Origin: the human T2T-CHM13v2.0 reference genome, Homo sapiens
Strand: one strand, 5' to 3'
Length of the DNA: 64,000 nt
NCBI RefSeq assembly: GCF_009914755.1
Contig: NC_060933.1
The translations under genes and the position numbers were made by a program. Position 1 is the stretch's first letter; each line of letters begins with the position of its first letter. Below, in pieces: positions 27,603 through 54,930 of this stretch. Below the pieces are notes generated by a model. The model had not been told where the DNA came from. It made no database searches and saw only the letters and a program-made list of their open reading frames with translations.

Positions 27603-29359
27603 GTTTTCTTTAAGAAGGCTTTTGCAGCCCTTAAGCCCTAAAGATACTCTGCAGTCTTTTGGCTTTCTGATTTTCTACTTTTCCAATCTGGCCCTTTAAT
27701 CCATGGAGTCCTCCCGTGTCTGTGACCCACAGGTGTAGAAATTCATTGCTGACCTCTATCTGCTAAGCAAACATCAACCAGACCACATGCTCCTTCCCCA
27801 TTGGATTTGCAGTGTTGCCTTTGGGATTTAAGTTCCCACTTGGGTCAATGTTGGCCATGTCTCTGGGCTCTTGGTTCTAGGCCGTTGCTCTTCTTGCCAG
27901 TGCCACGTGGCATTTATTGCTGCGTCTTTGCAGGGCATCTTCCTATCTCACAAGACAAGCCCACGCCCTTTGCCCTTCTTTTCTAATGTTGAGCTAGCCA
28001 TCTGAGGACCTTAACTCCTCCATCACTGCTGAGCTCCACAAGCACTCTTGATTGCGATTGCGTTGAATTTGTGGGTTCGTCTGGAGACACTCGGCATTGT
28101 CCTGACATCAGGCCGCTGCTTCTGAGAGTGTGGAGCGCGCAGAGCCCTGCCCGTCTTCAGACTGTCTTCCACATCTTGTATCAGAGTGGACATTTTTGGT
28201 TGATTCCTAGATACTTAATGAATTCTGTTCCTGTGGTGAATGGCATCTTTTTCAGAATTATATTTTCTAATTGGCATTGCTGGGGAAAAGAAATGGTTTG
28301 GACTTCTGTAGGCCCAATATGTCTAGCAGAAATAGGCCATGTATCTGTCAGTCCTACTGGTGTTTTTCTACATAGATCATTTGATTAGGAAGAAGTCAAT
28401 GACTCACTAAAAACGAAGCCCAGAAAAACTAGTTCTCCATTGTCTAGAGTGGTAAGAACTCATTCTTTACACACGTGCACGAACGCACACATGAGTGCAC
28501 ACACACACACACACACACACAACCTGGTCTGTCTTCTCCCCTGCAGAGCCCCATGGGTCCTGCTTGGTGTTATGTCTCGTGCTCCATTCACAGCACACCA
28601 GGGACACAGGTAGCAGAGCTCAAGCCTGCTTGAACAAACAGGCCAGGTATTCATAGAGTTCTGGTAGCAAGGGAGTAAATTCTGCCCGATTTCTTTCCTC
28701 CAGCCTCAGAGGTGTCTTCTTCCTCTTCCTGGAGTGACTGGGGGGTGGCTACCAAGTTTGAAAGGCAAAAGCCGACCCAGCAGACCCAGTTCCCTGCCCC
28801 TGGTAGCCTCTCCAGAGGGCACCTGATGGCAGGCCCCTCTGGAGGATGGGTGCCTCCTGCCAGATAAACTCCCTGACTCCAGATAGTCCAGGCTGCAGTG
28901 CCCAGTGGCAGCCCAGGCCAGGGAAAGGGTGGGCGAGAAGCCAGGGCTCCAGTACAGCTTTGAGCAAGCTCTGCAACAGGACGGACTCCAACCATTGAGA
29001 CCAGATGACCTTTCAGAGCCTTCTCTGCTGAAGCTGACTCTCCTCTCCACCCCCTGACCCCCCACCCTGCCCCGCTGGCTCCGTCTTCCAATTCCAGGAG
29101 TCACTGTCGCCGTCAGCTGGTGACCCTGCCACTACTCAGGCCTCATGGCCAGGCAAGGGTCCCCCGGCTCTTGTGTCAGGATCTCCTTTGCAGTAAGAGA
29201 TCCTAACATCTGTAGAGAATGGGTTCAGCAAAAGGCACACCTGCCAACAGGGTGGTTTGTTCCAGTGCTCAAGGCAAAGCCGACCAATAACATGCTTAGG
29301 ACGTGGGAATGTGAGATGGGGCAGCTGTGGTAGAAACAGGCTGGCAGCTCCTCCAACAG

Positions 29360-32278
<2,919 letters not shown>

Positions 32279-32308
32279 ATGGGTGAAGACAATGACCAGG
32301 GTGCAGGC

Positions 32309-32402
32309 AGGCTGACCATCCCATCGGTTTGCCTGGAACTGTCCTAGTATTAGCAATGACAGTCCCATGTCCCCAGGGCAAACCAGGGTGGTTGGTCACT
32401 GA
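32309..32402. mobile_element. MER94-like hAT MITE
   Basis: aggctgaccatcc...ggtttgcctgg...ccagggcaaacc...gttggtcac with terminal inverted repeats. Confidence 0.7.
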
Positions 32403-35280
32403 AGTTCAAGTCCCTCTAGACATTTCCAAACCTAATTAACAAGTTGGGGAAGCGAGCTGTAACCCGTTTCTCTAGCGCTTTATTTGTGTGATTTGGCCAG
32501 AAATTGCTTCAAGAGGAGACGTTCAAAAAGGAACAAAAAATCAGAACTGAAACAATGTCGGAGGGCACTTTGGGGTTTCTTCAGCAAAATGCAAATCCCT
32601 CCATTATCTTGTGGTTTAAACCAAAGCTGCCTTTTGGAAACTCCCGCTGATTCTCCAGCCTCATGGAGGGTGGCAGGTTCCTCTTTTAAGTGTTCCAGGC
32701 TAGGAGTTGCGTGGTTAACGCTGGGGTAATACACACTCTGTATTTGCTACCACAGCCCCCCACCCCTAGAAGTCTCCCAAGAGGAAATCGGTGGTGTGGT
32801 CATGCACAGCTCCTGTGCTCCTGATGGAGACTGTTGTGGATCCAGGGCCATCTAGACATCTAGGTATTTTCAGCTTTCTTCCCTTAGGACAAGAGGACCA
32901 AGGCCTGAGCAGCCCTGAATCGCTCCCATGATGGCCCAAACAGGCACGGAGGAGGGTGATTGGTCCCTGAGAATGTGGATGCCTGGAGCAGTTCACGGTA
33001 CTGTCTCTGCCTCGTTCTGAGCCTGCACTGGGGCCTTGGGTCCCTGCAGAGCTGGTGGCCCACAGCTGGTAGCACTGTCCAGGTGCAGGTTTCAATCATC
33101 TTCCAGGTAAAGGACGTGCACGTGGCCTAACAATAGAAGCCGACCTTCAGTAAGAGCCACCTGGGATGGGGCAGGTCACTGGACCACCTTTCTTCACCTG
33201 TGTCCCATCTGCGGTGGGGAGGGGGGACTTCATTCTGCATTTTACATTTGAGGTAACTGAGGCAACCTGGAGGAGGTCACAGAGCTAACCACTAGTGGGA
33301 GAGCATCAGGCACATGAGGACCTGCAGCTTTGCAGGAGGAAGACCCTGATGCCCCCAAGCATCCTCACAGGCGCTCTCGGCTGGAGGTTCATCTTTCAAA
33401 TCAGCCCTGCCTCCTCCAGTCAGCTCTGTCTGGTTTAGCTCAGCTAACAGGATGCGTCAGCTTACCTGAATAAAACACTTTACACCCCCACGTAAGGACC
33501 AATAAGCTTAACCTTTAGGGACAGGTTTGGTTTTTGTTTTGCCTCTTCCTGTCACAGGCTTCAGCTGCCACATGGATGAGGAAGTCAGGGAGGTAACTGA
33601 CCAGACCAGCACACCTTCTCCCTGCCCCTGGCTGGCTAGCTGGGACCTTTCCCCCTCTGCCTCTCCAAACCTGAGGCTGGAAGGGGCCTATGGGGGTGTT
33701 CGGGAATCTGGGAGGTTGCCAAGCCCCATCCACCAAGGGGGGCCGGTTCTGTCCCTAAGTTGGAGCTCAGGACTGGCTTCAGCCAAGGCAGTGCCCAGAG
33801 CCTTTGAGAGACCCCAGGCTGGGGTCGGTGGGGTGGGCCTGGCTCTCTGGGGAAGGCTGCCATCAGGGAGCGTGGGCTGCCGCACACTCTCCTCCCGGTG
33901 TTGACAGTGACGGATGTGGTCAGGGCAGGACCCAGACAGGGAAGAGCTGAGGTTCCTGGTGGGTCAGTTTGGCTCTTCCCTGCTCTGCTCTGTGGCTGCA
34001 AATACAAACCTGGGGCCCAGCAGGGACAGGCATCCCCACCTGTCAAAGGCCTACGGACCCAGGGAGGGGGACGCCGTTCCTCACGGCCCTGGTGTCAGAA
34101 GCATGACCGGCCTGCTTTGTCAAGAGGCGGAGGAGGGCGGGATGCCTGCTGGGCATGTGGACTCTCAGCTTCCAAGCAGGTCCTGTTGCCCTCCTGCCCT
34201 CCAGGTGACAAAGCTGAGGCACTGTTGGGAGTAGCAGTCTGCCCGTCATCCCTGGCAGTGGGTCAACATGCAGCCTGGCTCTGGGACCTGGAATTGGACC
34301 TGGGTTATGCAGCTGGCCTGTGCAGGTGCCAGCCTCGCCTCTCTGGGCCTCCATCTCCTGAGCCACACAATGAGGACGAGGCCGGCTCTGCACTGAGAGC
34401 AAGGCCGACGGCAGAGGCCATGTGCCGCAGACCTGGACTCATCCCCTCACTATGCAGGCAGGCCCCAGCCCCTAGAAGCTCCTGGAACTTGGAACTCTGG
34501 GCAGAAGCCCTCAGAACAGAGCAGCCCAGTTCTGCCTCTTCCAGCTTCCCCAGGAGCCTGCTGCCTCGTCTGCAGTGGCAGGGAAGACCATGACGCCCCC
34601 CACACCCACATCCAGGCTGCCTTGCAATCCACACACCTGTCCATTTCACCTCCATCCACGTCCCTCTCCCCTGCGGCCACCACGCAGGCCCAGCCACCCC
34701 CACCCCTCTGCTGCTGCAGCCTGGAAGGTCGCTGCATGCTTCTCTATCCCGGGCAGTCCCGCACCGCTTGGGGAAGCTGGAAGAGTCCAGGTCTGCTGGC
34801 ACCAGCCGTGAGATGGAGCATAAGGGGCATGTGGCACCCCTGAGCACAGACCCTCCTGGGCTGTCCTGTTACAGAGAGGGGCAGATCACCCTCCTCACAG
34901 CCTCCAGGCCCTCTGGGTCCAGCCGCGTTCCCTGCCCGACTCATTGTGTGAGTGCCAGGCACGTCCCCCTCCTGGGCACTCACCCTGCCACCCCCAGGCC
35001 TCCTAGGGCCAGAGTCTCTGCCCTGGACACTTGTATTTTCCTACTAACTGCCACTCATCCTTCTGTCTTGTCTGCCCCGGACAGTCATGCCCCTGCCATC
35101 TCCCCCTGGCAGGGCACGCTGCACCTTCTGAATCCCACCGTGGCCCTGGGAAAATTTCACTTGTCTCTCGGCACACCAAGGCCAGGCATTCAGGGATTGC
35201 ATCACTTTCCTGAGCTATGTACCTGCAGCATCTGGCTCGGGGCTGGGTGTGTCACTGACCCACAACCACTGCTGAATGAA

Positions 35281-35340
35281 TGATGAGCGGATGAGTGAGT
35301 GATGAGCGGATGAGTGAGTGATGAGCGGATAAGTGAATGA
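35281..35340 (+). repeat. 19-bp minisatellite (~3 copies) on an L2-like tail
   Basis: tgatgagcggatgagtgag x3 after gctgaatgaa. Confidence 0.85.
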
Positions 35341-35814
35341 GCACAGGCGGGTCTCAGGAGGTCCTTCCAGCCCTAGAACTGACTCGGGGGCCTTGGTTAA
35401 TGCCAGTGGGTGATTTTCTGACTCTAAAGGCAGATGTGGGGAGTGGAGACTCAGCCCTGAATGCATGCAGTGACCCAGCACTGAGAGAGGACGGTGGCTC
35501 TGGCGGGGTGGCCGCCTGCGAGATGCTCCCCGGGGCCTGCTGCGGAGATGAGTAAACATCAGAGTTTTGTGATGAGGGCTCTGCCAGGGGAAGCCCACGG
35601 TATCACGGAGAGAAGACAAGGGCATCCACCACAGGAGGATGGACAGGGTGGGCAGGTGTGGGCTTCGTCATCCATCATGGCCAGGGCTGGGAGTCCTCAG
35701 CGCTTCCAGCTCTGGAGACAGGCCCAGAACCCTGGAAAGAGGAGCTCCCATCAGCCCACAGGGGGCTGGGCCGGCCATCCAAGGCAGACATCCAGGGTCC
35801 TTCTATTTGAACCG

Positions 35815-36220
35815 ATGGGTAGATGCTCAGCTGCTCCGGGGGCTGGTCCAGGCTCCATCCCAGTCCTGGCTGTCCATGCAGAACATGGTACCCAGGCCCC
35901 AGGACTAGCAGATAATCCTTCAAGAGGGTCCAGAAACGGTGTGCCGAGCACAGTTCTCCATGAGTCAGAGGCCTCTGGACATGAGCCTAAGGGGCCCACA
36001 TTGAAATAGGACTCTCTAATCACAGCTGGGCACCAATCAGGCACCGGCTTCCATGGCTGAGGCCTGCTGGCTTCTCTCTCTCAGTGAACCGTGCTCCCGT
36101 CAGCCTCCGCGCGACATCCCGCAAGGCTGCAGCCACCTCTCGCTCTGCATCCAGGAGCAGGAGTGTCCGGGGTGGAGGCTCTGCTGCCCCATAGGCTGTG
36201 GGGCTGTCTGTGCCAGGAGG
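35815..36220 (+). pseudogene. Candidate WAP/WFDC four-disulfide-core domain pseudogene (putative exon 35815-35887; WAP exon from 36085)
   Basis: Acceptor cttctctctctcag|36085, then C-x11-C-x5-C-x5-C-x5-CC-x3-C-x3-C (CSRQPPRDIPQGCSHLSLCIQEQECPGWRLCCPIGCGAVC). Confidence 0.55.
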
Positions 36221-37320
36221 AAGGACCCCTACCCGCACCTGCTGTGTGCCTGCTCAGGGGTCGAGGCAGCTGCGCAGCTTACAAAGAGGACAGCACCCCC
36301 GTCTCAGGCTGCCAGGGCCTTCTGTGATCTCCTGTCCTTGGGCTCCTCTGCTGGCACCCTCCTGCTCCTCCTGAGCCGTCCTCGTGCCCTTGCCATCTTT
36401 CCTGGAAAGCCTTGCATCCATTCAGCACAGCTTCACAGCTTCACCCAGCCCGGGCCTCATGTGCCCCAGAAACACAGCCTTGAACACAACAGCGGGTTCC
36501 CTCTCAGGAGCTTCCCCACCTCCCCCTGGGTCAAGGAGAGGGAGACCAGCATTGGCGTGCACTGTGTCAGGTGGAGATCAATTGGAAGAAAAGCAAAGTG
36601 GGGTGGTGGTGGGCAGGGGACCGCAGGGGGTGCTATCTCAGAGGTTTCTGCAGGGCCGTCTGTGCAGAAGCCCATTGCTGTCGCTTGTAGCTCATCGTCC
36701 TTGTGGCAGCCCCATGCCAGTTCTGCAGGCCAAAGAACAAGGTTCAGAGAGGGTGAGCAGCTGGCAAGAGAGCACACAGCAGCTAGTGGCAGGAGCGGAG
36801 CCCAGTCTTCCCTCCAACCGAGCCCTTTCCTTCTCCTTAGCTTTGCCCACCGAAGCCCTTCCCATCTCCTTGCCTAGAGATGGTTAGGCGTGACGACTGT
36901 GTTCAGGATGACCCTGGCCAGGTGCAATAATTACAAGCCTAGGAAAAATGACAGAAAATAAACATTCCAAGATATTAGCAAGCTGGCGTGGCTTTCTCTT
37001 CTGCTTTACATTATTTTTTCCTTACTTTCCAAATTTTATGCGGTGAGAATTTATTACTTTCATTACCAGGTGCAAAAAATAGAAACAAACAAAAAACTCT
37101 GTCTGATCTTTCAGACTAGTTCGAATGTCTTCTTTTCTAGAACTGGGATGACCAGGACATTTGGGCGTGAAAGGGGCCCTACAAGCCTTAACAGATACTA
37201 AAGAACGTCAGACAAGCAGAATGAGGATGGCCCCAGGCAAGGTGGACCCCACCCCAGCTGCAGGGAACAGCAAGGCTGCAGGTCAGTGTTGAGTGGCCCT
37301 TTACAAAGGACTGTGACCCA

Positions 37321-41434: not shown

Positions 41435-41887
41435 AAGCACCCCTGTCACCTCTGCCCATGCAGCCTACCCCGTCCCCAATTCACGAGACAGTTAACTTGG
41501 TTCTTGCCCTGAGCCAGGCCCTGGCCCGGAGCCTGGGGCCACAGGTGCCCTCAAATGCACATGGGACTCAGGCTCATCAGCAGTGGCCTCATGGCAGGAG
41601 GGTGGTCACTGTGGGCTGGGGGAGGCTGTGAGGCTCCTCTGGCAGCTCCACCTGCGAAAGCCAAGTCGAAGAGTGAGTTGAGTGTGTGCTGGCCCATCTG
41701 CCCCTTTCCCTCTCCGCTCAGGGCCCAGAGCCTCCCAAACAGGCAGCTGTGACTCTGATGAAGCCACCTGGTGCGGGGGGTGTGGGGTGGGGTTGGGGAC
41801 AGCAGGGGAAGCCCACTACTTGGTAGTCCCAAATGTCACAGTCTGTGACCCATGAAGGATGGCTGGGCCACTCCTTGGGACAGGGTT

Positions 41888-42800
41888 ACACCAGACACAC
41901 ACACAGACGTATTCACACCAGACACACACACACAGACACATTCACACCAGACACACAGACACATTAACACCAAAAACACACAGGTACATTCACACCAGAC
42001 ACACACACACAGACACATTCACACCAGACACACACAAAGACCATTCACAGCAGACACACACACAAAGACACATTCAGACCAGACACACACACAGACACAT
42101 TCACACCAAAAACACACAGGCACATTCACACCACACACACACACACAAAGACACATTTACACCAGATACACACAGACCATTCACTTCAGACAGACACACA
42201 CACATTCACACCAGCCACACACAGACACATTCAAACCAGACACAGATACATTCACATCAGGCACACACACACAAAGACACATTCACACCAGACACAGACA
42301 CAAACCATTCACACCAGACACATACACATTCACACCAGACACACACAAAGACCATTCACACCAGACACACACACATTCACACCAGACACACACAGACCAT
42401 TCACACCAGACATACAGACCATTCACACCAGACACACACACATTCACACCAGACACACAGACACATTCACACCAGACACACACAAAGAGACATTTACACC
42501 AGATACACACACACAGACCATTCACTTTAGACAGAGACCATTCACACCAGACACACACACATTCACACCAGACACACACAGACCATTCACACCAGACACA
42601 CACACATTCACACCAGTAACACACACAGACACATTCACACCAGACACACACAAAGATACATTTACACCAGATACACACACAGACCATTCACTTCAGACAG
42701 ACACAGATACATTCACCCCAGACACACACACAAAGACACATTCACACAGACACAGGCAAAGACACATTCACACCAGACACACACACAGACACAGGCACAC
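41888..42800 (+). repeat. CA-rich VNTR, variable ~20-28-bp unit built on ATTCACACCAGACACACACAGACAC
   Basis: More than 30 recurrences of attcacaccag(a) and its variants separated by variable CA tracts. Confidence 0.97.
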
Positions 42801-44291
42801 CCCTGCACACAGCCACTGTGCTCATGCATAGCCGGGTACACCTGCTTGCACACTCACACTCGCTCACCCCCACACCCCCCCCCGCTTCCTCACCCACTTT
42901 CTCTCCTGGTCCTGCAGTGCTTGTTCCCACTAGGTCCCTGGGGGGCCAGGGAGAGCCAGCCAGGCCCGCCACCATTCTCTCCCCGCAGAGCGATGCCGCG
43001 TGTCCAGAGCAGCGGGTGTGGGAGGCAGAGCCTGGAGCTCCCAGAGCCGGCGGCCCACGGCCTCGCCTCCAGCCAGGAGGGTGCGGAATTCTCCCCCACC
43101 CAGCAGAGGCTCTGGCCATCTGTCTCCAAGGATGCGGGGGAGCGGACCGGCTGTGCCGCTCTAGGGCTGCTCCGCCTGACAGACAGCAGTGTCGACCACC
43201 CATGTTTGCTGCACAGACTGTAGCTTCCACACCCCTCCCCACCCCAGCAGCCTGGGGAAGGAAGGCTGGAGGTCCCTGCATGACGGGTGAGGAGAGAGGA
43301 CAGGAGCCCGGTGCTCTGAACACCGCCCCAGCCCAGCTGCACGTCAGGACCCCACACTGGCCTCTTACATTGAGAAGCCAAGACCCACCCAAAACCCAGC
43401 TATCAAAGTCTCTGGGGACAGCACCAGCAGGGCAGAGGGCGTTGGTTCCCTTAGAATGTGCTAGAAGGCTCATCCCTGCAGGAGGTGCCCCTGCAGGCAT
43501 CCTTGCCCCCACACTGCCTGGTGCTGCCCACCTGCTCACTTGCAGGTGACCCTAGTTTCTCAGTGGCTCGGCAGCCTCGCGGGCTGTTGTAACACTGACA
43601 CCACGTCTGTGAGATCATTGGCTTGGAAGATTCAGCTCAGAATTGGATAGAAGGGCCCTGCCCTGCCAGGCACAGCTGCCGGCCCTTGTCACCTGCAGCT
43701 GCATGAGAAACTAAGGCTCAAACCAAATCCTTCTGGACAGAAAAGCAGGTCCCCCTCCACTACCCCTTCGTCTGGGCTCTCGGTCAGCGGGGTCAGGGTG
43801 GCCGGGACAGTCACTCTCATTTCCAGAGGAGGCGAGAGGCAGATGAAGGCCATGGACAGCAAGCCATGGGGCCACAGCACAGCCTCAGGTCGTTGCTGAC
43901 ACACCTGCGCCTCCCACAGCCCTCCCCAGGAAAGCCGCGGCAGAGCTCACCCCACTCCCAGGGTGCTCACCTGGGACCTCCTCACCTCTGCACCTGCCCT
44001 GGGTATCCTCAGCCGTGACCCTGGCCTGGCAGTGCCGGCGGACAGGTTGCAACCAGCCCAGCTCCCCAGGGGTGAGAGGGGCCCATCACCGGCCACCCAC
44101 AGGCATCCCTGGGTCTGCTTTTTGGAGCAGTGTCCGGGGTTCCCTTCATATCCTTTATATCTATGTGAACCTGACCGGCACACTCACTCCAGGCCCAGGT
44201 GTTCTGTAAACACTGAACACCATGCTGTTAACCAAGGTTACGTTAAAAAGTGACTATGTGGCCAGGAAATAGATTTTGTATAGTTATGTGC

Positions 44292-49317: not shown

Positions 49318-52070
49318 TGATTCATTTGAATTAGTTTTTTATATGTGGATAATTTTTGAATATGCATATGGATATTCTGTTATTCCAACGCCATTTGTTG
49401 AAAAGGCTATTTTTCCCTATTGAATGGTCTTGGCACCCTTATCAAAAATCAATAGGCCATAGATGTGAGGGTTTATTGGTTTATTTCTGGACTCTCAGTT
49501 CTATTCCATTGATCCATATGTCTATTCTTATGCCAATAAACACTATCTTTATTGTTGCCTTATAGTGGGTTTTGAAATCAGGAAGTCTGAGTCCTTCAAC
49601 TTTGTTCTATTCAAGAATATTTTGGCTGCTCTGGATCTCTTGAGTTTCTGTACTAATTTTATGATCAGCTTCTTTATTTCTACCAAAAAAGTCAGGCAGA
49701 ATTTCGATAGGGATTACACCAAATCTGTAGGTAAATGTGGGGGCGTACCACCATCTTAACAACAGCAAGTCATGCCCTTCAAGAATGTGGGATATCTTTG
49801 TGTTTATCTAGGTCTTTAAACATTTCTGTTAACAACCTTTTGTAGCTTTCAGTGTGCAAGCCTTGGGCTTCTTTTGTTAAATTTATCCCTAGGTATATAT
49901 GCAATTATAAGTGGAAATTTCTTTAAATTTCATTTTTGGCTTTTTCATCACAAGTGTGTAGAAATAAAATTGATTTTTGTATATTAATCTTGTATCCTGC
50001 CACATTGCCGAACTTGTTTATTTGTTCTAAGAGTATTTTTCATGGATTTCTTAGGAAGATCATTTCATTTGCAAATTGAGATTGTTTTTCCTTTCCTATG
50101 TGGATATCTTTTCTTTTTCCTGACTAGGTTTTGCTAGAACCCTATTGTTGAATAGAAGTGGGGAGAAGGGACATCCTCGTCATGTTTCTGATCAGAGGTA
50201 GAAAGCTTTTTCAGTCCTTCTGAATTAAGTATGAAGTTAGCTGTGGGCATCACGAGCACTCTGAGTATTTTTAGACGGTGCCAAAGCAAAGCCCTCCTCC
50301 GTTCTCAGCAGACCCGTGAACAGCCATGAACCCCAGTGTCCTTTGCTTTCTCTTGTTCCTTCATGCTCGCCTTCCACCCTCCTCTGTGCTGACCCCTCCA
50401 GGCTGCAAATAAAACCCACCAGCTGCTTCCTATGCTACTGTCAATGCATCAGCTAAAGTTGGAATCTCAGCACCAAACCCGAGCCCTTTGTGCCTAAGGC
50501 CCCGTGGCACAATAACCTCCAACACAGTCGTTAGGGTGAGACCTTAGGAGTGAACAACCCCTATGCAAATGCCCAAAAATGTATTCAGATGTCACCTATG
50601 TTTGTACCTGTAGCTGTCACAAATCGTTTAGAAGTGTGCCATTGGGTGGACGGCTGGATGGATGAAGATAGGGGACGATTTCTGATTTAACAACCACCAA
50701 GTGTCAGGAGAGAGAAACACAGTCTGCGAGTAGCACTGACTCTGGCAGAGATTTTATAACAATTCATGCAAAGATTATTTATTCAATAAATATTTATTGA
50801 GCTCCTATTATGCACTTGGCACTGGGGAAAAACAATGAAGAAGACATAGAAATCCTGTCCTCTGGCACCTAAGCCTGGTGGGTTCAGGGAGATGCATTTG
50901 GTTGCCCTGCCAGGGCCTGGGCTTGAGGAGGCCAAGCCATCTCTCCTAGTCATCTGAGCCAGAACTTGGCAAACTTCTCCCCAGCTGAGTGAGTGTGTCC
51001 AGAAGACTTGCATTACCAGGGACCCCACCATGCAGCCATGGCTTAGAGTGCCCTGGAGTCTGAGTTCAGGTCCCGCAGTTCAGAGCAGAGGGAAGGCAGC
51101 TGGCAGAGTAAGGAAGTAAGGAGAATCCATGCTCACCCTTGTCTCCCACTATGTGACCTTGGGCCTGGGGCTGGCATGGCAGGTGCTACAGCCAGACAAT
51201 AGAGGCTCCAAACCCAAGTTTCTGTCACTGTGGGAGCTACCATGTCAGAGGAAGGTGATGATTAATGCACAAATATGTATTTTCTCCATCAGTCTGGTCT
51301 TTAACCAGTCTCTAGATTCATAATACCCTATCCAGGACAGGGTTTTCAGATGGAGCATCAATAATGCAGGTGCACACACAAATTATGAATGAGTTTGATC
51401 CTGGAGCAGTGATAAGTGAGACTTTCTTGGAAGGCAGGGCTCAGCTGACAGCTGTGGGCCCTGCAGTGACTCCTATCTACACTCTGGAGGGCTCCGGAAA
51501 CCTCTAGCTCTGCGCCCCCTCCTCTGATGCAGTCCACATTGCAGAATGGCAGGCTCTCCTGTCCCTCTGGCTCAGCTTGTCCCAGCTTGGCCAGTCAGCC
51601 AGGGGCTACCGGGTGCTTCTGTGCCATGGTAGCATCTCTCCTCCCCTTGGCCTTTGCTGTGGAAGGAGCTACCTGGAGGAGATTGTGGCCTGGGCCAGGG
51701 ACATCTGTGCCATCACCCTGGCAGGAGGTGAGGAGGCAGTAAAAGGGCAGCCCAGACTGGCAAGAGAGGGGCTGCCCACTTCGGGGGCATCACACCTACA
51801 GGAGGCATGTCCTCCAGCACGTGGTCTTCACGCTGCCCCCCGACTTGGACCTCCTTTTAAACTGTACCACACTGGGAAGTCCTTCACCACGGTGGGGCTC
51901 ACCCTCACCACTGGTCCATGGCAAGGTGGAATAATACTTCCTGAGCTCCTTTTCCCCTCCAACAACTTCAGAGAATGAACAAGAAAGAGTCTAGAAGATG
52001 CAGCTGGAGGTGCCATTTTTCCTGGCATGGTGTTAAAAATTTTAAATGGGGCTGCAGTAGCCTTTCCATC

Positions 52071-52966
52071 TGTGTGTGTCTCTAGCTGTGTGTTTATCTG
52101 TTCACGTGTGTTGTGTGTATGTGTGTGTCTCTGTGCACGTGTGTCTCTGGGTTTCTAGGTATGTATGTCCATGTGTATTCACGTGTGTGCATGTGTTTCT
52201 GTGTATTTGTGTGCATATGTATGTGTCGATGTGTGTGTGTATGTGTGTGTCTCTGTGCACGTGTGTCTCTGGGTTTCTAGGTATGTATGTCCATGTGTAT
52301 TCATGTGTGTGCATGTGTTTCTGTGTATTTGTGTGCATATGTATGTGTCGATGTGTGTGTGTATGTGTGTGTCTATGTCCCTGTGTGTGTCTGTGTCTAT
52401 TTCTGTGTATGTGTCTGTGTGTGTATCTGTGTCTGCATCTCTTTGTGTGTGTGTATCTCTCTGTATGTGTCTGTGTATATCTGTGTGTGTATCTCTGTGT
52501 GTATTTCGGTGTCCGTGTGCATGTGTGTCTGTGTGTGTTTCTGTGTGTGTCTGCATGTGTATCTCTGTTTGTATGTGTATTTCTGCGTGTCTATGTGTGT
52601 ATCTCTGTGTGTATTTGTGTGTATTTCTGTGTGTCTGTGTGCATGTGTGTCTGTGTGTCTTTCTGTGTGTGTCTGTGTCATGTTTGTGTGCATTTGTGTC
52701 TGTGTGTATTTCTGTGTGTGTTTGTGTCTGTGTGAATGTGTGTCTGTGTGCATTTGTGTCTGTGTGCATTTGTGTCTGTGTGTATTTCTGTGTGTCTGTG
52801 TGCATTTATGTCTGCGTGTATTACTGTGTGTGTCTGTGTCTATGTCATGTTTGTGTGCATTTGTGTCTGTATTTCTCTGTGTGTTTGTGTCTGTGTCATG
52901 TGTGTGTGCATTTGTGTCTGTGTGTATTTCTGTGTGTGTCTGTGTGTGTTTGTGCATGTGCACACA
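52071..52966 (+). repeat. TG-rich degenerate array with an internal 122-bp tandem duplication
   Basis: (TG)n-derived; ctgtgcacgtgtgtctctgggtttctagg begins at both 52131 and 52253. Confidence 0.96.
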
Positions 52967-53221
52967 TGGGTGCTCCAGCCACCGAGCCCAGCCCTCGGGG
53001 CACAGAACCCTCTGGGCACAGGGGCTTGGTCTCTGCTTCCGAAACGGCACCGCCAATGTCTGTGAGTTTCGTGGGTGTCCCTGTGTGATCCCCTCACTGG
53101 AAAGTCTGGCTGGCTACAGACATTGCTGCTATTCTCCTGGCAACTGCTGCAAACCACAAAGAGCTTCTTTCTTATCCTTTGGGAGCAGGGGAACAAGGCT
53201 TCACTATAAGGGGATTAGGTT

Positions 53222-54930
53222 TGTATTAGGCTTTGATCAGAGAGGCAGAACCACCAGGAAATGTGGCTGAGGGATTTACTGTAGGATTTGCCCATGTTTG
53301 ATAAGTCAAAGAAGGCTCTTGCTTCTGTGCCTGGTGTGGCAGCCTAGGGTCAGAAGAGCAGGTGGTGGGGCAGGAGAGCTGCATGTCAGGTTGGGCAGCA
53401 GGAGCGCCCTGGAAACTGCCGGGTCGGATGTCCTCTGCAAGGCAGTCTCCCTGTTGCTGTCCCCAGCTTTAATTCTGGGATCCCACAGGAGAAGATGGGG
53501 CCCTTCATCAGGTGCTAAATGTCACACCTGTCCTGGGAGTTAAAGAACTCATGGAAGACTATGGCAGGAACAGGGCTGCTGTGGGTCCCCTGCTGCACAC
53601 TGGCAAGGTGCCTGCCCACAGGTGACAGCATGCAGGGCTGCAACAGCTCCAACCTTCTGGGCACAAAAAGAACATGGCCACTGCTTCCCGCCTTCCCAAT
53701 TCTGCACCATGCCTCTTGGGGCCAAACTGACCAGGGGCTATGTAGGAAAGGGCATTCTGGGCAGTACAGTTCTGCTTGGGTGGGCTGATGCAATAGAAAC
53801 CCACCACGGTCTGCCCCTTGTCAACCTGGCACCATATATGACTCACTTAGACACACTTAATGCCTGAATAAAGACAACAGCAAAATCCTTGCTTATGCCT
53901 AGCATGAAGCATGATCCTCTGAACAACTGAAAACACACTCTGCCCAGAAGAGGATACAAAACCCCTTCCTCCACCCCTGGGTGACATCTCTTCCTCCTAC
54001 AGCTAAGTCTCACACCCTTTCTGATATCCTGTGGCCTAAACGCCAAGTATATTTGTTATCTATTGCTCTATAAAAAATCACCCCAAAATCCAGAGGCCTA
54101 AAACAATAAATGTGCATGATCTCACCTCTTCTGTGGACAAGAGTCTGGGCATCGCTAAACTGGCTGCCTGTGGCTCACAGTTCCTCGCTAGGCCTCAGTG
54201 AAGCTTCCAGCCAAGGCAGTGATCTCATCTGAAGACTGGACTGGGATGGTATCATCTTCCACGCTTGCATGCATGGCTGTTGGTTTGTGTCAGCAGCTTT
54301 CTGCCATGCAGGCCACTCTGTGGGGCTACTCATGATGTGGCAGCCTGCTTCTTTCAGAAAAAGAGCTGCAAAAGAGAGAGAAAGCAAGATACTGCATGCA
54401 AGATGGAAGTCATGGTCTTTTTGTGACTTAACCTCTAATCTTGGAAGTGATAACCCTTCGCTTTTGTTGTATTCTGTCCATTCTTTGGATTGAGGTACTA
54501 TGTCCAGCCCACATTCCAGGGGAGGGGATTACACAGGGCCATAGATACAGAGAGGAGGGGTCATGGGCCCATCTTAGAGGCCGCCCAGCCTGCTGAGAGA
54601 GAAGGTCACTACTATCAATGCAACGTATGTTGGATGCAGAGAAATGGAAGAGGGAGGAGAAGTGTGGTTCACATCTACTGACAGATTCACAGCTAAATAC
54701 GGAATAAGAACTTGTGACTGTTACACCTCATGTCTCTACCTGGTCATGCGGCCATAGCTGTCCCATAACTACCCTCCCTCGTGACTGTCCATAGTCCCTG
54801 TGCCCTAGCAAGGCCCTCGGAGGGTCGTGCTTCCTTGTTTGGTGGGGTGACCCAAATCTTCATTCCCAAAGGATCTGAACGTCTGAAACCTGCTACCATT
54901 TTGGGTCATTGTTGACCATTTCAATGTGGT
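53222..54930 (-). mobile_element. Older ERVL-class relic (pol 3' end, 3' internal region, LTR end) interrupted by an MLT1 LTR
   Basis: Minus strand from 54866 reads GMKIWVTPPNKEARPSEGLA, homologous to the HERV-L pol C-terminus; LTR-like end ...ctgatcaaagcctaataCA at 53222. Confidence 0.65.
54050..54590 (-). mobile_element. MaLR LTR (MLT1F/G-like)
   Basis: ttatctattgct...aaatcaccccaaaa...ctcatctgaag...cagcccacattccaggggagggg. Confidence 0.7.

What the first reader, a model, noticed from the sequence alone, without database searches (positions are those of the whole stretch)
36053..36220. WAP/WFDC four-disulfide-core-like exon ~22 kb upstream of FCN1 (candidate undescribed pseudogene)
Seen: a clean acceptor (cttctctctctcag|, AG at 36083-36084), followed on + by a frame with eight Cys spaced C-x11-C-x5-C-x5-C-x5-CC-x3-C-x3-C (codons at 36092, 36128, 36146, 36164, 36182, 36185, 36197, 36209): EPCSRQPPRDIPQGCSHLSLCIQEQECPGWRLCCPIGCGAVC. 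The segment keeps 8 CpGs in ~130 bp. Established: WAP domains end in C-x2-[DN]-x2-C-x5-CC-x3-C-x3-C (elafin CLKDTDCPGIKKCCEGSCGMAC), often start KPGxCP, and are typically encoded by one phase-1 exon. Inference: the exon start TG AA- CCG TGC TCC CGT CAG is one 1-nt deletion and three substitutions from (V)KPGSCP, so this looks like a decayed exon of a secreted antimicrobial/protease-inhibitor gene, away from the chr20 WFDC cluster and beside an innate-immunity lectin gene. E replaces the usual D/N and I see no good downstream donor, so it is probably non-functional in human. The unspliced 274-aa ORF 36053-36877 still carries all 8 Cys.
Basis: partly seen in the sequence, partly recalled or inferred. 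Interest (0 to 1): 0.82.

Follow-up and report, generated by a model that had tools for sequence, protein, structure and literature searches.

The report
Lone WAP-like exon relic near FCN1
A short stretch inside a non-coding RNA gene next to FCN1 reads like the cysteine framework of a WAP protease-inhibitor domain, and it is probably a dead remnant of such a gene, though a chance look-alike is not excluded.

Summary
Window 36086-36214 (+) encodes eight Cys spaced C-x11-C-x5-C-x5-C-x5-CC-x3-C-x3-C, directly after a strong acceptor-like site.

It is WAP-like by every sequence test I could run:
- Pfam WAP scores 22.1 bits against a cut-off of 20.8.
- An HMM I built from 27 human WAP exons scores 20.8 bits; the next best ORF in the window scores 11.5.
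- 9 of 13 significant hits among 1.84 billion representative proteins are WAP proteins.

The score is marginal at genome scale: E = 1.29 over the whole assembly. In 1.35 Gb of simulated DNA nothing scored 18 bits or more, which extrapolates to roughly 0.1-1 chance hit per genome.

Several features argue against a live gene:
- The acceptor puts the Cys frame in phase 2; 14 of 18 real human WAP exons with a detectable acceptor are phase 1.
- S replaces the P that follows Cys1 in 21 of 21 real exons.
- I found no usable donor, no signal-peptide exon and no annotated orthologue.

Verdict: decayed solitary WAP exon about 0.5, chance resemblance about 0.4, live coding exon about 0.05. Cross-species conservation is the decisive test and could not be run here.

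The parts
36068..36084 (+). Acceptor-like site: polypyrimidine tract ggcttctctctctc followed by AG (36083-36084).
   Evidence: One search shows the sequence; 14 of 17 upstream bases are pyrimidines, with a run of 11. Only 27 to 115 of the 4875 YAG sites on both strands of the window are as good, depending on the criterion; it lies 7 nt before the Cys1 codon, inside the 5-41 nt range of real WAP exons, but this gives phase 2, not phase 1.
36086..36214 (+). WAP/four-disulfide-core-like coding segment EPCSRQPPRDIPQGCSHLSLCIQEQECPGWRLCCPIGCGAVCA. It has eight Cys (36092-36211), CPG after Cys4 and GCG around Cys7.
   Evidence: Pfam WAP 22.1 bits; 21.4 bits, genome E 1.29; own HMM 20.8 bits; aligns with 21 human WAP exons.
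36020..36877 (+). Stop-to-stop open frame of 285 codons carrying the segment (ATG at 36053, stop at 36875-36877). Apart from the WAP-like part it has no family match and no paralogue.
35991..36194 (+). The frame that a canonical phase-1 use of the acceptor would read (…VNRAPVSLRATSRK…). It has no Cys pattern and ends in a stop codon at 36192-36194.
   Evidence: ORF list. Pfam finds nothing in it (protein 11).
33107..37140 (+). Intron 2 of lncRNA LOC105376314 (NR_188683.1), same strand, which contains the segment. The annotated transcript skips it.
   Evidence: Hub annotation table supplied with the finding. Exon 2 encodes no signal peptide (reading).

Best explanation
[quoted passage not shown] It would be the remnant of a small secreted WFDC-type protease-inhibitor or antimicrobial gene that once lay beside the ficolin genes at 9q34.3. 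It now sits silently in intron 2 of lncRNA LOC105376314.

Shown:
- the eight-Cys WAP skeleton with CPG and GCG;
- an acceptor at a family-typical distance;
- single copy in the genome.

Inferred:
- It is dead. In the canonical phase 1 the acceptor reads a Cys-free frame that stops at 36192-36194.
- There is no usable donor, no signal-peptide exon and no Pro after Cys1.
- It therefore makes no protein today.
- Any ancestral function (disulfide-locked inhibitor loop) follows only from family knowledge.
For: WAP-likeness by sequence:
- Pfam WAP is over its cut-off on the 55-aa piece (22.1 vs 20.8 bits, E 1.9e-4) and in the genome scan (21.4 bits).
- An HMM built only from 27 human WAP exons gives 20.8 bits, window E 2.3e-5. 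The next best of 1643 ORFs scores 11.5.
- phmmer over 1.84 billion representatives gives 13 hits at E<=1e-3, and 9 of the 13 carry Pfam WAP.
- Of the 5 PDB hits at E<=10, four are WAP proteins by their molecule names and my recall of anosmin-1 (elafin twice, anosmin-1, nawaprin), but none is significant.
- In the ESM Atlas all ten best named clusters are WAP. The top score is 0.86 with 183 shared features.
- MAFFT places all the Cys on the family's Cys columns; Cys2 is offset only by the variable loop.

Against a chance origin:
- 1.35 Gb of Markov-simulated DNA gave no hit of 18 bits or more. The maxima were 16.3 and 17.9, and the best chance hits align only 4-6 Cys.
- A Cys1 sits at x11 before Cys2. 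This lies outside the HMM alignment, so it is extra information.
- An acceptor as strong as this one has a 0.4-2.7% chance of falling in a 21-30 nt slot. Here it lies 7 nt before Cys1, within the 5-41 nt seen in real exons.

Relics of this kind exist: the chr1 hit of the same scan (21.3 bits) is a 70%-identical decayed copy of a chr20 WAP exon.
Against: - Genome-wide E is 1.29. The simulations extrapolate to about 0.1-1 chance hit per genome.
- On the 285-aa ORF Pfam gives 18.1 bits, below the cut-off.
- The Cys frame is phase 2 at the acceptor, whereas 14 of 18 human WAP exons with a detectable acceptor are phase 1.
- Only 2 of 8 non-Cys consensus positions match, against 3-8 in 21 real exons. 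P after Cys1 is present in 21 of 21 real exons and is S here.
- No donor was found and no signal-peptide exon.
- No orthologue was found in libraries that do find primate orthologues of the human chr7 WAP pseudogene exon.
- An old relic should have lost some Cys; all eight are kept. That pattern also fits a chance hit, because Cys matches dominate the HMM score.
- The fold is inconclusive: pLDDT 59.7 alone and 68.8 with a WAP alignment, and the Foldseek hits to WAP structures reach only E 0.17-3.8.
Confidence: 0.5

Rival explanations
1. Chance resemblance. GC-rich, CpG-decaying intronic DNA (rich in TGC/TGT, GGN and CCN codons) happens to spell a WAP-spaced Cys pattern next to a (CT)n-derived polypyrimidine-AG. 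There has never been a gene here.
For: - Genome-wide E is 1.29, rank 30 of 33.
- Another off-cluster hit at 21.5 bits (chr14) has two internal stops and looks like noise.
- The Markov nulls extrapolate to about 0.1-1 hit per genome.
- Splice phase is wrong. No donor or signal exon was found.
- Only 2 of 8 non-Cys consensus residues match, and the invariant Pro after Cys1 is absent.
- No orthologue was found.
- CpG content and ORF length are ordinary for this neighbourhood.
- The single-sequence fold finds nothing.
Against: - The joint occurrence of the HMM hit, a correctly spaced Cys1 outside the HMM alignment and a strong acceptor 7 nt upstream multiplies to well under 0.05 per genome. My estimate combines.
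- No simulated hit reached 18 bits in 1.35 Gb, and the best aligned 4-6 Cys, not 7-8.
- CPG and GCG also match.
- Real divergent WFDC exons in the chr20 cluster scoring 20-27 bits look the same: all Cys and few other consensus residues (L026 and L028).
Confidence: 0.4
2. Live but unannotated coding exon. A divergent WAP domain would be translated, either spliced in phase 2 from an unknown upstream exon or as the unspliced 274-aa ORF from the ATG at 36053.
For: - The frame is open for 285 codons and all 8 Cys are intact.
- It lies on the sense strand inside a transcribed lncRNA locus (hub table).
- A public protein record, P0019, is 273/274 identical to the ORF.
Against: - P0019 is a mechanical ORF call on a 1911-base assembled contig, not evidence of expression.
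- MAEACWLLSLS is too short for a signal peptide (my reading).
- The 220 residues after the domain match no family and have no paralogue.
- There is no donor, and the phase is non-canonical.
- The curated transcript skips the segment.
- No orthologous protein was found.
Confidence: 0.05

Closest known systems
Human WFDC genes of the chr20q13 cluster, especially the divergent single-WAP members (exons in L022, L026, L028)
   Same: - Eight-Cys skeleton ending C-x5-CC-x3-C-x3-C, CPG after Cys4 and GCG at Cys7.
- The acceptor lies a few codons before Cys1. The L022 exon even starts (E)PCP, where ours has EPCS.
- The Pfam score is in the same 20-30 bit band as L026, L028 and the 20.5-bit chr20 hit.
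   Different: - It lies on chr9, not chr20.
- Splice phase is 2, not 1.
- S, not P, follows Cys1, and E stands where D is usual.
- No donor and no signal exon were found.
- The best pairwise identity to any human WAP exon is only 38-40%.
Human WAP unitary pseudogene on chr7 (exons in L020, L023) and WFDC21P on chr17 (L025); these names are recalled, the places come
   Same: Dead WAP exons outside the chr20 cluster that still score over the Pfam cut-off (28-31 bits).
   Different: - The chr7 exon finds primate orthologues at 67-85% identity with the same tool that finds none for ours.
- They keep phase 1.
Relic copy of a chr20 WAP exon on chr1 (L032)
   Same: An off-cluster, unlisted WAP remnant with nearly the same Pfam score (21.3 vs 21.4 bits).
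   Different: It has a clear parent: 70% identity to L013, E 3e-26. It has lost Cys residues but kept many other residues. Ours has no parent and shows the opposite pattern.
Elafin, SLPI and the waprins (solved WAP structures)
   Same: - Cys3-Cys8 aligns without gaps with elafin residues 30-53.
- In the alignment-guided model the second half superposes on omwaprin at rmsd 0.9 over 25 columns.
   Different: - None of these matches is significant: E 0.34 by sequence and 0.17 by fold.
- The Cys2-Cys3 loop is x5 here and x8 in elafin, so nothing can be said about inhibitory specificity.

Membership tests
WAP domain (Pfam PF00095) | Profile score at or above the curated gathering cut-off (20.8 bits) | tested here: met
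   22.1 bits on the 55-aa piece and 21.4 bits in the genome scan. It is marginal: the 285-aa ORF as a whole scores 18.1 bits, below the cut-off, and the genome-wide E is 1.29.
WAP domain (Pfam PF00095) | Eight Cys with family spacing (C1-x6..13-C2-x3..8-C3-x5-C4-x5-C5C6-x3..5-C7-x3..4-C8) | tested here: met
   The spacing is C-x11-C-x5-C-x5-C-x5-CC-x3-C-x3-C. The Cys fall on the invariant Cys columns of 21 human WAP exons.
WAP domain (Pfam PF00095) | Hallmark non-Cys residues: K-x-G-x-C-P start, D before Cys4, K before CC, C-G, and P after Cys8 | tested here: not met
   2 of 8 consensus positions match (P after Cys4 and G after Cys7), against 3-8 of 8 in 21 real exons. P after Cys1 is present in 21 of 21 real exons and is S here. 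Divergent chr20 members left out of that alignment (L026, L028) are similarly poor.
WAP domain (Pfam PF00095) | WAP fold with four disulfides | tested here: inconclusive
   AF2 alone gives pLDDT 59.7 and no Foldseek hit. With a WAP alignment pLDDT is 68.8, and the ten best Foldseek hits are WAP-domain entries by their titles or my recall, at E 0.17-3.8. That model is biased by its alignment.
Mammalian WFDC gene (functional) | WAP domain on one exon flanked by phase-1 introns | tested here: not met
   The acceptor lies 7 nt before the Cys1 codon, which gives phase 2. 14 of 18 human WAP exons with a detectable acceptor are phase 1. No credible donor follows Cys8.
Mammalian WFDC gene (functional) | Upstream exon with start codon and signal peptide | tested here: not met
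   A scan of 28000-36060 (+) for ATG, a hydrophobic core and a near-consensus donor found none. lncRNA exon 2 encodes none. The scan was crude, so a decayed exon could have been missed.
Mammalian WFDC gene (functional) | Orthologues or purifying selection in other species | not testable with these tools
   No vertebrate genomes are on hand. The protein libraries gave no orthologue, although the same word-based tool finds primate orthologues of the chr7 WAP pseudogene exon.
Mammalian WFDC gene (functional) | Expression of a spliced mRNA that includes the exon | not testable with these tools
   The only annotated transcript, NR_188683.1, skips it (hub table). No paper mentions LOC105376314.

The most novel reading that the evidence does not exclude
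An undescribed WFDC-type locus lies at 9q34.3 beside the ficolin genes. On this reading the human copy is a unitary pseudogene whose orthologue is intact in some other mammals or vertebrates, with a phase-1 K-x-G-x-C-P exon. The lncRNA LOC105376314 would be the surviving transcription unit of that dead gene, as recalled for WFDC21P (lnc-DC).
Probability: 0.2. Interest if true: 0.5.

Novelty: new member of a known kind. Interest (0 to 1): 0.3.

Why it matters
If real, it adds a lost innate-immunity or protease-inhibitor gene to the human list, outside the known WFDC loci. A 2024 review (passages read) places 14 of 18 WFDC genes on chr20 and names ANOS1, WFIKKN1, WFIKKN2 and WFDC1 as lying outside the cluster; 'chromosome 9' and '9q34' do not occur in its text. 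It would also point to a possibly live orthologue elsewhere, and it would explain the origin of an uncharacterised lncRNA. If it is chance, it is a useful calibration case: a Pfam hit over the gathering cut-off with all eight Cys can still sit at genome-wide E of about 1.

Tried and rejected
- **Known repeat or segmental copy:** rejected. 35900-36900 matches only itself in the assembly. The 285-aa ORF has no paralogue; the other three matches are at E 2.4-6.9.
- **Retrocopy or recent duplicate of a human WFDC gene:** rejected. There is no DNA-level match, and the best pairwise protein identities are 38-40%.
- **lncRNA exon 2 as the signal-peptide exon:** rejected on reading. Its only ATG frame stops early and is not hydrophobic.
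- **Signal-peptide exon scan of 28000-36060:** nothing found.
- **Second WAP exon:** 36841-36927 (+) follows a strong acceptor-like site and resembles a first half-domain. It scores only 7.2 bits, Pfam finds nothing, and no second half lies downstream. I treat it as noise.
- **CpG retention as a sign of constraint:** not supported.
- **Long ORF as a sign of coding:** not supported.
- **Other Pfam domains in 11 neighbouring or overlapping ORFs of 33.8-36.9 kb:** none. One YliH row at E 0.35 is noise.
considered and not adopted. It needs an indel and three substitutions in seven codons beside a perfectly kept Cys skeleton.
- **Literature:** nothing describes a WFDC or WAP element at 9q34 or near FCN1.
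  - WFDC / FCN1 / pseudogene: 15 of 296 papers listed, titles and abstract starts seen.
  - LOC105376314: 0 papers.
  - WFDC + 9q34: 6 papers found, 5 listed, titles unrelated.
  - Unitary pseudogenes + WAP domain: 0 papers.
  - Supplementary files were not consulted.

Full report
**What is there.**
- A polypyrimidine tract ends in AG at 36083-36084.
- From 36086 the + strand reads EPCSRQPPRDIPQGCSHLSLCIQEQECPGWRLCCPIGCGAVC, with Cys codons at the eight stated positions.
- The frame is open from 36020 to the stop at 36875-36877, 285 codons, or 274 from the ATG at 36053.
- The segment lies in intron 2 of the lncRNA LOC105376314, on the same strand, and the curated transcript skips it (hub table).
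- It is about 22.5 kb beyond the FCN1 start.

**Is it WAP-like?** Yes, by every sequence method available.
- Pfam WAP (PF00095) is the only family hit on the 55-aa piece: 22.1 bits, E 1.9e-4, cut-off 20.8, covering profile positions 8-39 of 41, that is Cys2 to Cys8.
- An HMM I built from 27 human WAP exon translations, found independently of this query, gives 20.8 bits and E 2.3e-5 among the window's 1643 six-frame ORFs. The runner-up scores 11.5 bits.
- phmmer against 1.84 billion cluster representatives returned 13 proteins at E<=1e-3. Nine of them carry 4-36 Pfam WAP repeats, and four do not. Identity is only 35-45%, and the high scores come from summing many repeats.
- Against PDB sequences, four of the five hits at E<=10 are WAP proteins by their molecule names and my recall of anosmin-1. 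The best E is 0.34.
- The ESM Atlas feature search puts WAP clusters in all ten best named places. The top score is 0.86 with 183 shared features, which is a lead only.
- MAFFT aligns the peptide's Cys to the invariant Cys columns of 21 human WAP exons.

These tests are not independent, because all of them lean on the Cys pattern.

**Is it more than chance?** Within the window it clearly is. Genome-wide the HMM score alone is not.
- The six-frame Pfam scan of the whole assembly ranks it 30th of 33 matches (49 candidates scored), at 21.4 bits and E 1.29.
- I simulated 749 Mb of DNA from an order-3 Markov model of the GC-rich neighbourhood, leaving the candidate out. I also simulated 599 Mb from an order-4 model of the window. 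The best scores with my HMM were 16.3 and 17.9 bits, and none reached 18. The real segment scores 20.4-20.5 in the same tile format.
- Extrapolating the tails at a halving per bit gives roughly 0.1-1 chance hit per genome. This agrees with HMMER's own E-value.
- The best simulated hits align only 4-6 Cys.

Two features outside the HMM alignment add weight.
- A Cys sits 11 residues before Cys2, within the family's range.
- A strong acceptor-like site lies 7 nt before that Cys. Sites as good are 27-115 of the 4875 YAG sites on both strands of the window. The chance of one falling in a 21-30 nt slot is therefore 0.4-2.7%.
- Real human WAP exons have the acceptor 5-41 nt before Cys1.

The same genome scan also shows that off-cluster relics exist. 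The chr1 hit at 21.3 bits is a 70%-identical decayed copy of a chr20 WAP exon. The chr14 hit at 21.5 bits has two internal stops and looks like noise.

**What speaks against a real, and certainly against a live, WAP exon.**
- *Phase.* The Cys frame is phase 2 relative to the acceptor. Of 18 human WAP exons where my crude finder located an acceptor, 14 are phase 1. The four exceptions look like mis-detections of Cys1 or of the site.
- *Phase-1 reading.* In phase 1 the exon reads a Cys-free frame that stops at 36192-36194.
- *No donor.* After Cys8 there are only CTGT|gtgcct and GGG|gtcgag.
- *Consensus residues.* Only 2 of 8 non-Cys consensus positions match, against 3-8 in 21 real exons. The Pro after Cys1 is present in 21 of 21 real exons and is Ser here. 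Divergent chr20 members such as L026 and L028, which I left out of that alignment, are about as poor, so at this score level the pattern does not discriminate.
- *No signal-peptide exon* was found upstream.
- *No orthologue.* The word-based search of 5.8 billion proteins found nothing in the 41-132 aa range. Among longer proteins it found only P0019, which is 273/274 identical to the ORF itself and is a mechanical ORF call. As a positive control, the same tool run with the human chr7 WAP pseudogene exon found four primate WAP proteins at 67-85% identity. The phmmer scan found no single-domain relative above about 45% identity. This excludes annotated close orthologues. It does not exclude unannotated or more distant ones.
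- *Composition and ORF length.* CpG o/e of 0.51 is matched or exceeded by 11% of GC-rich tiles. ORFs of 229-261 aa lie next door.

**Fold.** AF2 without an alignment gave pLDDT 59.7 and no Foldseek match. With the 21 human WAP exons as alignment it gave pLDDT 68.8, about 78 for the second half and about 55 for the first. The ten best Foldseek rows are WAP-domain entries by their titles or my recall (omwaprin, elafin, SLPI, nawaprin), at a non-significant E of 0.17-3.8. This model is biased by its alignment. It shows compatibility and nothing more.

**Weighing.**
- Among off-cluster, unlisted hits of the scan, real relics (chr1, probably chr12) and noise (chr14) are about equally common. I therefore start near even odds.
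- The extra Cys1 and the acceptor favour a real exon. I estimate likelihood ratios of about 3 and about 2-10; the latter is reduced because the phase is wrong.
- The missing orthologue and the perfectly kept Cys skeleton beside a garbled N-terminus favour chance.
- I end at about 0.5 for a decayed solitary WAP exon, about 0.4 for a chance look-alike and about 0.05 for a live coding exon. The remainder is left open.

**Comparison and novelty.**
- The nearest things are the divergent single-WAP genes of the chr20 cluster and the known dead WAP exons on chr7 and chr17 (names recalled, places).
- It differs in location (9q34.3), phase and the lack of any parent or orthologue.
- No paper in the library mentions a WFDC element at 9q34 or LOC105376314.
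- A 2024 review (passages read) lists no WFDC gene on chromosome 9.
- If real, it is a new member of a known kind. It would be a pseudogene fragment of modest interest, unless a live orthologue turns up elsewhere.

**What is left open.** Cross-species conservation of the Cys codons, frame and acceptor is the decisive test, and it needs vertebrate genome alignments that these tools do not hold. RNA-seq junction evidence is equally out of reach here.

Noticed in passing
window 36841-36927 (+): LCPPKPFPSPCLEMVRRDDCVQDDPGQVQ* begins right after a strong acceptor-like site (ccctttccttctccttag, AG at 36839-36840), 620 nt downstream of the main segment on the same strand. It resembles the first half of a WAP domain. 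It scores only 7.2 bits, Pfam finds nothing, its Cys frame is phase 0, and no second half lies downstream.
   Followed up: partly
G000:C12:10649730-10649831 (+), locus L024 1501-1602: A WAP-like open frame on chr12 (YCSGIPCINDYDCRDLRKCCGTFRCGLRCIHP) scores 28.5 bits in Pfam, genome-wide E 0.0075, inside a 109-aa open frame. It lies outside the chr20 cluster. Its best identity to chr20 WAP exons is 42-46%. It may be another unlisted WAP relic.
   Followed up: partly
G000:C1:57963283-57963402 (+), locus L032 950-1174: A decayed copy of the chr20 WAP exon held in L013: 70% identity over 57 residues, E 3e-26, with two Cys lost.
   Followed up: yes
window 35280-35340 (+): Three tandem copies of a roughly 19-nt unit (tgatgagcggatgagtgag), seen on reading.
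   Followed up: no
window 41850-43550 and 52060-53270: The longest open frames of the window (up to 329 aa) are translations of simple repeats (HTQTHSHQTH... and VCVCVYVC...). The first block overlaps exon 3 of the predicted lncRNA LOC105376313 (hub table).
   Followed up: no
protein P0019 (matches window 36053-36874): A 274-aa record in the public protein collection is 273/274 identical to the ATG-to-stop ORF. It is a cluster of 10 member sequences from a 1911-base contig.
   Followed up: yes
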